Source: Trichoplax sp. H2 (lineage: Eukaryota). Taken from it: a stretch of 64,000 nucleotides of DNA. Numbering within the stretch: the stretch's first letter is position 1; each line of letters starts with the position of its first letter. The notes beneath the pieces were generated by a model that saw nothing but the letters and a program-made list of their open reading frames with translations, was not told the origin of the DNA and ran no database searches. Below, piece by piece: positions 3,992 to 6,900 of the stretch. The stretch is from the NCBI GenBank assembly GCA_003344405.1, contig NOWV01000102.1:1-64000 (forward strand), given 5' to 3'. The translations under genes were made by a program, and so were the position numbers.

Positions 3992-6900
3992 ATGTCACGA
4001 ATATCCATGACACCTGATACGAAAGGCTCATCATCAAGCATGAGCAGTATTAGCGGTAAATATCTTGATAACTTAGCACTTCTTTGTAACGTTGTTATAA
4101 TGGACAGTAGTCATGATTATCTTGTAATTTATTTTGGTAACGATGCGTATAACATTTGGATGACTACAACGAACTTTCAACCACTATCCATTAAAATGAA
4201 TCCTTTTTATCGTATTGTATAGCGCAATCATCTGAAGATCAAGTTATGAGTATTTTATATTCGCGACAGGATTATGAAAATAATCAGAATAAATATGTTT
4301 GTTCCCAGACTGATCAAAATGATGTTCTCAACCAGCAGGTAATGGATGCATCGCTCTGATATACATTTGTATAAATATTGATTATAGGCGTATATATGGC
4401 TACTGAGTAAGACGTATATTTATATGTACGAAGTATAGATACGCGCATATTTGTATACCTTTTATTCATTGAAAACAAAGTATCGGATCTCCTTATGAAA
4501 TGATTTTAATATTGCTTGATTGGCATTTAAAGGCGTCTATTTTGTAATTAGCTATTATTAAAGAATGACAGTGCGTGTTGATATAGATGGTTTTGATACA
4601 AATACTATACTACTGACCGTCGCTAATTGCATTTGTCATTCAAATACTTTATTATAGGATCAATCCGAGGTTTTAAATTTCGTTGATCAACAGGTTATAG
4701 CTGCATCAAATCCGAATAATGACAACGACGGTACAGTTTATTTAAGCCAGGCAGATGTTGACGATCAGCAATTTAGGTACGATATATCATTATTTTAAAT
4801 ATACCTCAATAACTTTTATTGTAGTTTAAGATATAGAATATCATCTTTTCTAAAATGGTTTCATCGTTATCCTAGTATTGATCAATTAGCGGAAAGACAG
4901 CAAACAGATCTTCTATCTCAACAGTCTAATCGATATAGAGATAATAACGTCGATGCTAATAGTGATCTGATGATTCCTACCGATGGAGGATATGAGTAAG
5001 TCTAAGATTGTTGTATCGACGTAATTGATTTGAATATAAATTATACAGTACTGTCTTACGTAATGTTCTTATTAATGAAAATTTGTATACTTTGTAGCGA
5101 TCATCGAATGCATCAAATTTCTTCGCATTTAAGTAATCGGAATTCAAATTCTTCTGATATTACTAATCCTTTGGGGCATCTATCTGTATCAGTGCATGAA
5201 GAACTACCTACTTCAGTGGCAATCTCTGCGCTTACTGGAACAGTAACTGATGGGAGGAATATATCAGGTTCGTTCAAAAATTATTTAAGATTAAATCGCT
5301 GGTTGCTATTCTATGTGATTGTATCGCTAATGTAGCATTATTATGATATAGTGATGACTCTATCTGATAACATTTCACCGAATAGTCCGAAGAAAGGTTA
5401 TCAGTGCCATTATGACGGTTGCGAGAAAGCGTTCTCTACACCGTATCGACTTAAAGCTCATAATCGGGCTCATACAGGCGATACGTTCAAGTGCGAACAA
5501 ACTGGATGTACTAAGGCGTTTATTACACCAAGTGATTTACAGAAACACTGTAGAACTCATACTGGAGAAAAACCGTACAGATGTAAATTTGAAGGATGTG
5601 GTCGGAGTTATACTACCGCTCATCACTTAAAGGTATGCCTTTTTTTTGTTATTCCATCAAAAGCGGATTTCACAAAATGATTATAGTCCTTAGTTATATA
5701 TGATGTATCAATTAGGTTCACGAAAGGTCCCATACCGGAGATAAACCATATAAGTGTACATATAACGGTTGCCACAAAGCTTTTGCAACGGGATATGGCC
5801 TAAAATCACATATTCGCACTCACACCGGCGAAAAGCCATATAAATGTACATTCAAATCCTGTGAGAAAGCTTTCAAGACATCTGGAGATTTGTCTAAGCA
5901 TATGCGAATACATTCAGGTTAATAACTGCTATGTATATCTGTAGACACTTCATACCATTAATAGCGTATCAAAAGTTGTGATGTTGAATACGTTTAAGCA
6001 GAATTATATCTAATTGATAGATAATCGCATTTGGTCACACTAGCTACTCTCTATTACTTAGGTGAAAGGCCATTTAAGTGTCCTTTTGAGGGATGCGGTC
6101 GAAGTTTTACCACTTCTAATATCAGAAAGGTACATATGCGAACCCATACAGGAGAGAGGCCATATATATGTCAAGTGCAAGGTTGTAATCGAGCGTTCGC
6201 AAGTGCTACTAATTTTAAAAACCATATGAGAATTCATACAGGTAATGAATAGTAGTTAGTAAAATTTTATGATATACAATTAACCTATATAACCTGTATA
6301 AACATTACCTAGGTGAACGTCCATACTGTTGTACCTACCCTGGATGTTGCAAACGCTTCACTGAATATTCTAGCTTGTATAAACATCACGTTGTTCATAC
6401 ACATTCCAAGCCGTATACATGCAAATTTTGCAACAAAACATATCGTCAGACGTCCACACTAGCCATGCATAAACGCCAAGCTCATAGTAATGGAGAATCA
6501 TGCTGTGAAGTTAGCAAAAAACTGAGACTTGGAAGTTACGGCTCTGTAACATCTTATGCTGACACGCCTGTAGTTACTAGCCCGTCCATATACCAAACTG
6601 TTGCTACAGATGAAATCCCTATTGAGGTTCCTAATGTAAATCTGGTTGTCAACGACGAAACTTATGGAAATATGACTGTCGATGATGGTATAGATTCAAT
6701 TACAAATGGTCAGCAATCTGAGGATTCGCTATCTGATGATAATTTAATGTCTGTAACGTCTGCCACAGCTGCTAGTTTAACCCATCAACGTGATGATATT
6801 CGACAGATCGGTAAATGTGATATGTAAAGATTGCACGAACAAACATTGGATAAATGTAATTATAACAGATTTTTTCGTTACCAATTTTGTAGATATTTCG

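What the first reader, a model, noticed from the sequence alone, without database searches (positions are those of the whole stretch)
5352..6490. Nine-finger protein that bridges MTF-1 and ZNF143/Staf
Seen: ahead of the seven ZNF143-type fingers lie two extra fingers, [52 protein letters not shown], on the same exon as ZNF143 finger 1. Recalled knowledge: vertebrate ZNF143 and ZNF76 have 7 fingers. Vertebrate MTF-1 fingers 3-4 read approximately [52 protein letters not shown], including the same atypical short HTGxTFxC linker. MTF-1 fingers 5-6 (AASHHLKTH, STQYSLKSH) also resemble ZNF143 fingers 1-2 ([18 protein letters not shown]). Inference: the array is collinear with MTF-1 F3-F6 overlapping ZNF143 F1-F7. 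That suggests the metal sensor and the Staf/promoter factor descend from one longer ancestral array by reciprocal finger loss, or that this gene is a chimera. It may recognise an extended or hybrid MRE/SBS site.
Basis: partly seen in the sequence, partly recalled or inferred. Interest (0 to 1): 0.85.

Follow-up and report, generated by a model that had tools for sequence, protein, structure and literature searches.

The report
Nine-finger ZNF143 gene with MTF-1-like fingers
This is an expressed gene for the promoter factor ZNF143/Staf in the nine-finger form that sea anemones, corals and hydroids also carry, and its two extra fingers closely match fingers 3 and 4 of the metal sensor MTF-1, which hints that the two factors share an ancestor.

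Summary
A 10-exon gene on the + strand (ATG 3992, stop 7188, 681 aa) encodes nine tandem C2H2 fingers. F1, F2 and the start of F3 lie on one exon (5352-5632). Spliced RNA contigs from three runs show the introns.

The gene is not a one-off hybrid. All 14 other family proteins that carry F1-F2 have the same nine fingers; the five that are named are cnidarian, and RefSeq already calls four of them "zinc finger protein 143(-like)". No F1-F2 remnant was found in 99 of 99 seven-finger (bilaterian) proteins.

The likeness to MTF-1 is real:
- 62% identity, without gaps, over 81 aa to MTF-1 fingers 3-5.
- The same rare six-residue linker.
- Identical DNA-contact residues: TYRA in F1 and MTF-1 finger 3, TSDK in F2 and MTF-1 finger 4.
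- The collinear register (MTF-1 fingers 3-6 against F1-F4) scores best.

Maximum-likelihood trees are weak. They do not reject a register shifted by three fingers (p-AU 0.33). Only one MTF-1 sequence was available, and whether this organism has its own MTF-1 could not be tested.

Best reading: an ordinary ZNF143 orthologue of the non-bilaterian type, and ancient paralogy with MTF-1. A chimera is unlikely. No paper describing either point turned up in eight full-text searches. Interest is moderate.

The parts
3992..7188 (+). Coding region of the ZNF143/Staf-type gene. Ten coding exons: 3992-4055, 4223-4338, 4658-4776, 4876-4995, 5098-5267, 5352-5632, 5716-5917, 6062-6241, 6313-6810, 6893-7188 (stop included). 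Product 681 aa.
   Evidence: Joints in RNA contigs. All ten introns are GT..AG and the open frame is 681 aa.
3000..3317 (+). 5' untranslated exon. Its start lies upstream of 3000 and was not mapped. It is joined to 3973.
   Evidence: The joint 3317>3973 is seen in 1 of 4 runs (X19 only, shorter side 30 letters). Weak.
5352..5632 (+). Exon holding F1, F2 and the first 19 residues of F3.
   Evidence: joints 5265>5350 and 5630>5714 in X19, X20, X16.
5399..5473 (+). Finger 1 (extra). CX4C type, contact residues T-Y-R-A, as in MTF-1 finger 3.
5474..5485 (+). Short F1-F2 linker, TGDT. Six residues lie between the last His and the next Cys, against the usual seven. MTF-1 has the same between its fingers 3 and 4.
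   Evidence: 14 of 15 nine-finger proteins have it.
5486..5560 (+). Finger 2 (extra). Contact residues T-S-D-K, as in MTF-1 finger 4.
5576..5733 (+). Finger 3, which is ZNF143 finger 1 (HHLK). It is split by the phase-0 intron 5633-5715.
5749..5823 (+). Finger 4, which is ZNF143 finger 2 (GYGLKSH).
5839..5913 (+). Finger 5, which is ZNF143 finger 3.
6073..6147 (+). Finger 6, which is ZNF143 finger 4 (SNIRKVH).
6163..6237 (+). Finger 7, which is ZNF143 finger 5.
6324..6398 (+). Finger 8, which is ZNF143 finger 6 ([12 protein letters not shown]).
6414..6485 (+). Finger 9, which is ZNF143 finger 7 (CX2[12 protein letters not shown]).

Best explanation
The locus is the expressed orthologue of the transcription factor ZNF143/Staf in a non-bilaterian-type genome. 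Its nine-finger array is the regular form of this gene in cnidarians, not a local accident. Fingers 3-9 carry exactly the DNA-contact residues of bilaterian ZNF143 fingers 1-7, so the protein should bind a Staf-binding-site-like promoter element (inferred). The two extra N-terminal fingers are conserved DNA-reading fingers. Their contact residues and shortened linker equal those of MTF-1 fingers 3-4, so they should read about six further base pairs next to the site of finger 3, with an MTF-1 finger 3/4-like subsite (inferred). The simplest history is that ZNF143 and MTF-1 are ancient paralogues with collinear arrays (MTF-1 fingers 3-6 against F1-F4). On that reading, bilaterian ZNF143 lost F1-F2, and MTF-1 lost or never had the five C-terminal fingers (inferred).
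For: Shown:
- Gene model and splicing.
- Nine fingers.
- Family identity: the exon with F8-F9 retrieves ZNF76/ZNF143 proteins, and the contact residues of F3-F9 are identical to those of 7 of 7 bilaterian proteins tabulated.
- The same nine-finger array in 14 of 14 other proteins that carry F1-F2. The named ones are Nematostella, Exaiptasia, Actinia, Xenia and Clytia.
- No trace of F1-F2 upstream of finger 1 in 99 of 99 seven-finger proteins.

MTF-1 link:
- 50 of 81 identities without gaps.
- Profiles of F1-F2, F1-F3, F1 and F2 built from 15 nine-finger proteins find MTF-1 fingers 3-4(-5) as the top non-orthologous domain among 246 proteins: 96.5 against 77.2 bits, 131.0 against 109.5, 51.1 against 43.9, 54.4 against 50.8.
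- The reciprocal search agrees: M3-4 finds F1-2 at 80.5 against 65.2 for the next; M5-6 finds F3-4 at 72.2 against 61.3.
- Each of M3 to M6 scores best at F1 to F4 in turn. The diagonal mean is 92.7 against at most 75.3 for the 11 other registers.
- TYRA, TSDK and HHLK are near-exclusive to these fingers.
- The shared six-residue linker is rare.
- F1 and M3 form a clade with SH-aLRT 97.6.
- F1 and F2 each model as a beta-beta-alpha finger, mean pLDDT 77.5.
Against: - Only one MTF-1 (a reptile, P0007) could be compared.
- Maximum-likelihood tests have little power. Constrained trees for the wrong pairings F5+M4 and F4+M3 were no worse than the free tree.
- In the four-finger block tree, M3-6 joins F1-4 with only 45/18 support. 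M3-6 with F4-7 is not rejected (lnL -0.55, p-AU 0.33).
- F2's 17-residue core is as close to the family's own finger 5 type (13 of 17) as to MTF-1 finger 4 (11 of 17).
- M6 against F4 is weak: 72.0 against 67.3 for F1.
- MTF-1 fingers 1-2 have no specific partner (61.7 against 60.4 for generic fingers).
- The comparison set held only what the searches returned. Other ancient CX4C families such as ZXD were not in it.
- No SBS-like site and no snRNA or tRNA-Sec gene lies in the window to test binding.
- Whether cnidarians or this organism have a separate MTF-1 is unknown.
Confidence: 0.62

Rival explanations
1. Internal duplication. The ZNF143 array is built from a three-finger period, and F1-F2(-F3) arose as a copy of F4-F5(-F6) within the ZNF143 line. 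MTF-1 belongs to the same periodic stock, but its fingers 3-6 are not the positional counterparts of F1-F4. On this reading the identical contact residues reflect constraint on a similar DNA subsite.
For: Within-protein likeness is F1~F4 85.0, F2~F5 83.9 and F3~F6 77.3. The registers F1-4, F4-7 and M3-6 form one supported group (95/89). M3-6 with F4-7 is not rejected (p-AU 0.33). F2's core is as near to finger 5 type as to M4, and F5+M4 is not rejected.
Against: The margins favour F1-F2 over F4-F5 as the partner of M3-M4 (80.5 against 65.2; 96.5 against 77.2). The rare short linker is shared by F1-F2 and M3-M4 but not by F4-F5. TYRA is found nowhere else.
Confidence: 0.2
2. Chimera. A non-bilaterian ancestor captured fingers 3-4 of an MTF-1 gene in front of a seven-finger ZNF143.
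For: The likeness is strongest in F1-F2. Bilaterian proteins have seven fingers.
Against: No intron lies at the supposed junction: F2 and F3 share one exon. The likeness goes on into F3. M5 scores best at F3 (104.2 against 90.9 for the next), and HHLK is shared with only 2 of 2,356 other fingers. The array is shared by anthozoan and hydrozoan proteins and by the window protein, which lies outside their clade in the best tree.
Confidence: 0.1
3. Generic C2H2 similarity. The match to MTF-1 is what any CX4C finger pair would give.
For: All tandem fingers share the framework. Poly-finger proteins reach 40-57% identity to the F1-F3 profile.
Against: The best generic domains score 56-60 bits against 80.5 for the true pair. 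Among PDB chains scored for one aligned stretch, the best CX4C relatives are ZNF410 (62.0 bits) and GLI (60.1), well below MTF-1. The contact quartets and the linker are near-exclusive.
Confidence: 0.04

Closest known systems
Vertebrate ZNF143 / Staf and ZNF76
   Same: Fingers 3-9 match fingers 1-7 position by position with identical contact residues (THHV, TYGS, TGDK, TNIV, STNN, ESSK, QSTM). The exon with F8-F9 retrieves this family.
   Different: There are two more fingers at the N-terminal end. Vertebrate proteins are described with seven (passages of PMC7154149 and PMC6977252). No likeness outside the fingers was found beyond about 55 residues after F9. The N-terminal activation repeats were not recognised.
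Cnidarian proteins annotated 'zinc finger protein 143(-like)' (Nematostella P0220, Exaiptasia P0192, Actinia P0184, Xenia P0006), plus Clytia P0016 and nine unnamed ones
   Same: The same nine-finger array, and the same F1-F2 with TYRA/TSDK and the short linker in 13 of these 14. Identity over F1-F3 is 50-74%.
   Different: On the tree of the seven shared fingers, the window protein lies outside their clade (96/92) on a long branch (0.33). Nesting inside is disfavoured but not rejected (p-AU 0.05-0.08). Clytia has a lengthened F1-F2 linker and the residues SYRL/TADK.
MTF-1 (metal-responsive transcription factor 1; six fingers, MRE core TGCRCNC, per passages of PMC4879176)
   Same: Fingers 3-6 align in order with F1-F4. 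Contact residues are identical in two fingers and near-identical in two (AHHT/THHV, TYSS/TYGS). The same short linker lies between the first two.
   Different: There is no counterpart of MTF-1 fingers 1-2. There are five further fingers that MTF-1 lacks. The CQCQCAC-type cysteine cluster seen in P0007 is absent from the 681-aa product. Metal sensing was not tested.
ZNF410 (PDB 6wmi)
   Same: Its five fingers align with F5-F9 of the Xenia nine-finger protein (residues 354-503 against 4-153). It may be a further relative of the same CX4C stock.
   Different: The score is far lower (62.0 bits for its best stretch against the F1-F3 exon). It has no F1-F4 counterpart. Not studied further.

Membership tests
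ZNF143/Staf/ZNF76 | Seven tandem fingers with the family's own sequences and contact residues | tested here: met
   F3-F9 carry [43 protein letters not shown] and [11 protein letters not shown]. The contact quartets equal those of 7 of 7 bilaterian proteins tabulated.
ZNF143/Staf/ZNF76 | Relatives found with a family-specific part are ZNF143/ZNF76 | tested here: met
   Query F8-F9 plus tail: the named hits among the 120 listed are almost all ZNF76/ZNF143. 127 stored proteins carried both family motifs.
ZNF143/Staf/ZNF76 | Exactly seven fingers, as the vertebrate family is described | tested here: not met
   Nine fingers. This is the difference that defines the non-bilaterian variant.
ZNF143/Staf/ZNF76 | N-terminal activation region with short repeats | tested here: inconclusive
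   tblastn of four cnidarian proteins found no N-terminal match in the window at E below 1e-3. The 210-residue N-terminal part is low in complexity.
ZNF143/Staf/ZNF76 | Binds the Staf binding site in snRNA, tRNA-Sec and mRNA promoters | not testable with these tools
   No SBS-like site (the pattern was recalled, compare SBS1/2 in PMC7154149) and no Rfam RNA gene in the 64 kb. The whole genome is not held.
Nine-finger ZNF143 of cnidarian type | Two extra N-terminal fingers with TYRA/TSDK contacts and a six-residue linker, directly followed by the HHLK finger | tested here: met
   the window and 13 of the 14 other proteins; alignment A1, mean column identity 72%.
MTF-1 | Six fingers, including fingers 1-2 with the RGEYT-type linker | tested here: not met
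   The exon upstream of F1 encodes no finger. M1-2 has no specific partner.
MTF-1 | Finger 3-4 pair with a short linker, followed by an HHLK finger | tested here: met
MTF-1 | C-terminal cysteine cluster and metal-dependent activation | tested here: not met
   The cluster seen in P0007 is absent from the product. The metal response cannot be tested here.

The most novel reading that the evidence does not exclude
The nine-finger protein is close to the common ancestor of ZNF143 and the metal sensor MTF-1. In lineages without a separate MTF-1 it does both jobs. It would read a composite site (SBS plus an MRE-like subsite) through F1-F2, and those fingers with their short linker would respond to zinc as they do in MTF-1. 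One survey reports no MTF1 family in Placozoa (passage of PMC3701560). That survey did not treat ZNF143 as a family, so its sponge and cnidarian 'MTF1' calls could even be this gene.
Probability: 0.12. Interest if true: 0.8.

Novelty: new variant of a known kind. Interest (0 to 1): 0.5.

Why it matters
ZNF143 and MTF-1 are two heavily studied animal transcription factors that the literature treats as unrelated. A shared, collinear finger block with identical DNA-contact residues would give MTF-1 an origin. It would explain why ZNF143's first two fingers look like MTF-1's last two. It also predicts that non-bilaterian ZNF143 reads a longer site than the vertebrate one. All of this can be tested with standard binding assays and better-sampled trees. 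For the window itself the result is sobering: the gene is the normal form for its kind of animal, and sequences of this form are already in public databases under the name ZNF143.

Tried and rejected
- **Whole genome of the window:** not held, so a separate MTF-1 in this organism could not be sought. tblastn of MTF-1 and four ZNF143 proteins finds only this one finger locus in the 64 kb.
- **Crowding by poly-finger proteins:** the profile of F1-F3 against the 5.8-billion-protein set was largely crowded out, and MTF-1 sequences did not reach the 120 rows listed. A local trial showed that any finger profile is out-scored by such proteins. The one representative search (F8-F9 exon) listed 149 of 150 proteins with 8-49 matched stretches. 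Only P0259 is a true close relative: 200 aa, 79% identity over all 165 residues, a one-exon gene-model fragment.
- **Protein atlas:** it gave only generic C2H2 clusters.
- **PDB:** the two PDB searches listed no ZNF143 or MTF-1 chain.
- **Binding sites and RNA genes:** SBS patterns gave 0 hits. Rfam gave 0 families.
- **Single-finger trees (27 columns):** only F1+M3 is supported in the free tree. Constrained trees for F2+M4, F3+M5 and F4+M6 were not worse, but neither were the controls F5+M4 and F4+M3. These tests therefore do not discriminate.
- **RNA run X14:** it showed no joints.
- **Papers:** eight full-text searches found no paper that links ZNF143 with MTF-1 or describes a nine-finger ZNF143. 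PMC394452 (the original Staf paper) is not held.

Full report
**What is there**

The stretch 5352-6490 lies in a + strand gene of an AT-rich genome (GC 0.28-0.39) with short introns. Translating four neighbouring exons gives nine tandem C2H2 fingers. F1 (5399-5473), F2 (5486-5560) and the first 19 residues of F3 lie on one exon (5352-5632). The extra fingers are therefore joined to ZNF143-type finger 1 by an open frame, not by a predicted splice. Pfam sees only generic finger families.

**Expression and gene model**

One search for public runs found 20 rows that hold the stretch, from 7 studies. I laid four of them.
- Contigs of X19 and X20 (recorded as RNA-Seq) and X16 (RNA by guess) skip nine GT..AG intervals at exactly the predicted borders.
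- A tenth intron (3318-3972, in the 5' UTR) is seen in X19 only.
- X14 shows no joints.

Joined by these coordinates, the frame runs from ATG 3992 to the stop at 7186-7188, giving 681 aa in ten coding exons. Contigs show that the spliced form exists, not how abundant it is.

**Which family**

The exon with F8-F9 retrieves ZNF76/ZNF143 proteins. F3-F9 have the same DNA-contact residues (helix positions -1, 2, 3, 6) as bilaterian fingers 1-7 in 7 of 7 proteins tabulated. The organism's own protein is not in the protein collection (best match 78-79%, on the fingers only). A one-exon gene-model fragment from a close relative exists (P0259, 79% over all 165 residues).

**The nine-finger state is not unique**

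The first search with F1-F2 returned a Xenia 'zinc finger protein 143-like' protein (63% identity) and a Varanus MTF-1 (67%). I then counted fingers in the stored proteins.
- Fifteen proteins, the window's included, have nine fingers with the same F1-F2.
- The named ones are Nematostella ('zinc finger protein 143'), Exaiptasia, Actinia, Xenia and Clytia. Nine others carry no name.
- 102 family members have seven fingers: octopus, snails, crinoids, a brittle star, an acorn worm and many vertebrate ZNF76.
- One tick protein has nine only because its last two fingers are duplicated.
- In 99 of 99 seven-finger proteins the region upstream of finger 1 shows no remnant of F1-F2 (best 4.1 bits).

F1 and F2 are conserved among the 15: mean core identity is 0.82 and 0.74, against 0.86-0.91 for the other fingers.

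**Where the window protein sits**

On a tree of the seven shared fingers:
- The 14 other nine-finger proteins form a clade (96/92).
- The 14 seven-finger proteins form another clade (94/90).
- The window protein sits between them on a long branch.

Placing it inside a cnidarian subclade costs 5.5-7.1 lnL (p-AU 0.05-0.08), which is not a formal rejection. I cannot name the phylum. The whole genome is not held.

**The MTF-1 likeness: points for**

- BLASTP of the F1-F3 exon against MTF-1 gives 50 of 81 identities without a gap, over MTF-1 fingers 3-5.
- Both proteins have six residues instead of seven between the last His of the first finger and the first Cys of the next. That length is 65 of 2,814 linkers in the stored proteins and is kept in 14 of 15 nine-finger proteins.
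- Contact residues are TYRA in F1 and M3 and TSDK in F2 and M4, then THHV/AHHT and TYGS/TYSS.
- TYRA occurs in 0 of 2,356 unrelated fingers. TSDK occurs in 2, and HHLK in 2.
- Profiles built from the 15 proteins rank MTF-1 fingers 3-4 first among all non-orthologous domains of 246 proteins. The family's own fingers 4-5 come second.
- The reverse searches agree.
- Averaged over the 15 proteins, each of M3 to M6 scores best at F1 to F4 in turn. That register has a mean of 92.7 per finger, against at most 75.3 for the other 11 registers.
- A model of F1-F3 shows two regular beta-beta-alpha fingers.

**The MTF-1 likeness: points against**

- I had one MTF-1 only.
- Single-finger trees (27 columns) support F1+M3 (SH-aLRT 97.6). 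However, constrained trees for the control pairings F5+M4 and F4+M3 were no worse than the free tree. The non-rejection of F2+M4, F3+M5 and F4+M6 therefore says little.
- In a four-finger block tree, M3-6 joins F1-4 with only 45/18 support. The group F1-4 + F4-7 + M3-6 is supported (95/89). M3-6 with F4-7 is not rejected (p-AU 0.33).
- The array has a three-finger period (F1~F4, F2~F5, F3~F6). F2's core is as near to finger 5 type as to M4.
- MTF-1 fingers 1-2 resemble F3-F4 no more than generic fingers do.

The statement 'closer to MTF-1 fingers 3-4 than to internal or generic fingers' holds on scores, on the linker and on the contact residues. It does not hold on tree tests.

**Reading**

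The gene is the normal ZNF143 orthologue of non-bilaterian type. Its C-terminal seven fingers should bind an SBS-like element. By the usual antiparallel docking of finger arrays (established knowledge, Zif268-type), F1-F2 should extend the site beyond finger 3. Their subsite preference should be that of MTF-1 fingers 3-4.

Ancient paralogy of ZNF143 and MTF-1 with collinear arrays is the simplest history. A chimera is unlikely for two reasons. No intron marks the junction, and the likeness continues into F3. Reciprocal loss from a longer array is possible but not shown.

**Known or new**

Eight full-text searches found no paper that links ZNF143 and MTF-1 or describes nine fingers. Only one review held both names, and ZNF143 appears only in its reference list.
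- Reviews describe seven fingers (passages of PMC7154149 and PMC6977252).
- Two C2H2 surveys treat MTF as a family and do not mention ZNF143 (passages of PMC2889900 and PMC3701560).
- PMC3701560 reports MTF1 in sponges and cnidarians but not in placozoans.

The sequences themselves are public and named ZNF143. Supplements were closed.

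Noticed in passing
window 154-1434, 2527-2956, 26161, 32873-32934: GTACAGTAC occurs 57 times on both strands against 0.30 expected. It looks like a (TACAG)n pentamer satellite with frequent strand flips. It is dense at the window's start and scattered just upstream of, and in, the 5' UTR exon region of the ZNF143 gene.
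   Followed up: no
window 8460-9008, 9233-9805, 10570-11208, 12018-12593 (all - strand): Four tandem single-ORF genes with a CAP/SCP domain (PF00188, E 5e-28 to 5e-23) lie directly downstream of the finger gene.
   Followed up: partly
window 31258-31830 (-): An exon encoding the start of a kinesin motor domain (PF00225, E 1e-32).
   Followed up: no
fingers F1-F9 of the gene (5399-6485): The array shows a three-finger period: F1~F4, F2~F5, F3~F6. That suggests growth by duplication of a three-finger unit. MTF-1 fingers 1 and 2 score best at F3 and F4, as if they were a second copy of the M5-M6 type of pair.
   Followed up: partly
P0259 (representative library): A 200-aa predicted protein from a close relative covers only the F8-F9 exon and reads into both flanking introns. 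The gene is apparently mis-modelled there, which may be why no full-length close relative was found.
   Followed up: partly
P0014 (Rhipicephalus) and P0015: These ZNF143-family entries carry an exact tandem repeat of the last two fingers. This is probably an assembly or gene-model artefact, not a true nine-finger form.
   Followed up: no
PDB 6wmi (ZNF410) against P0006: The five fingers of ZNF410 align end to end with F5-F9 of the nine-finger protein. ZNF410 may be a third member of the same old CX4C stock.
   Followed up: no
window 7721: RNA contigs of three runs leave out 22 letters in the 3' region of the transcript. This could be a length variant between strains or an assembly difference.
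   Followed up: no
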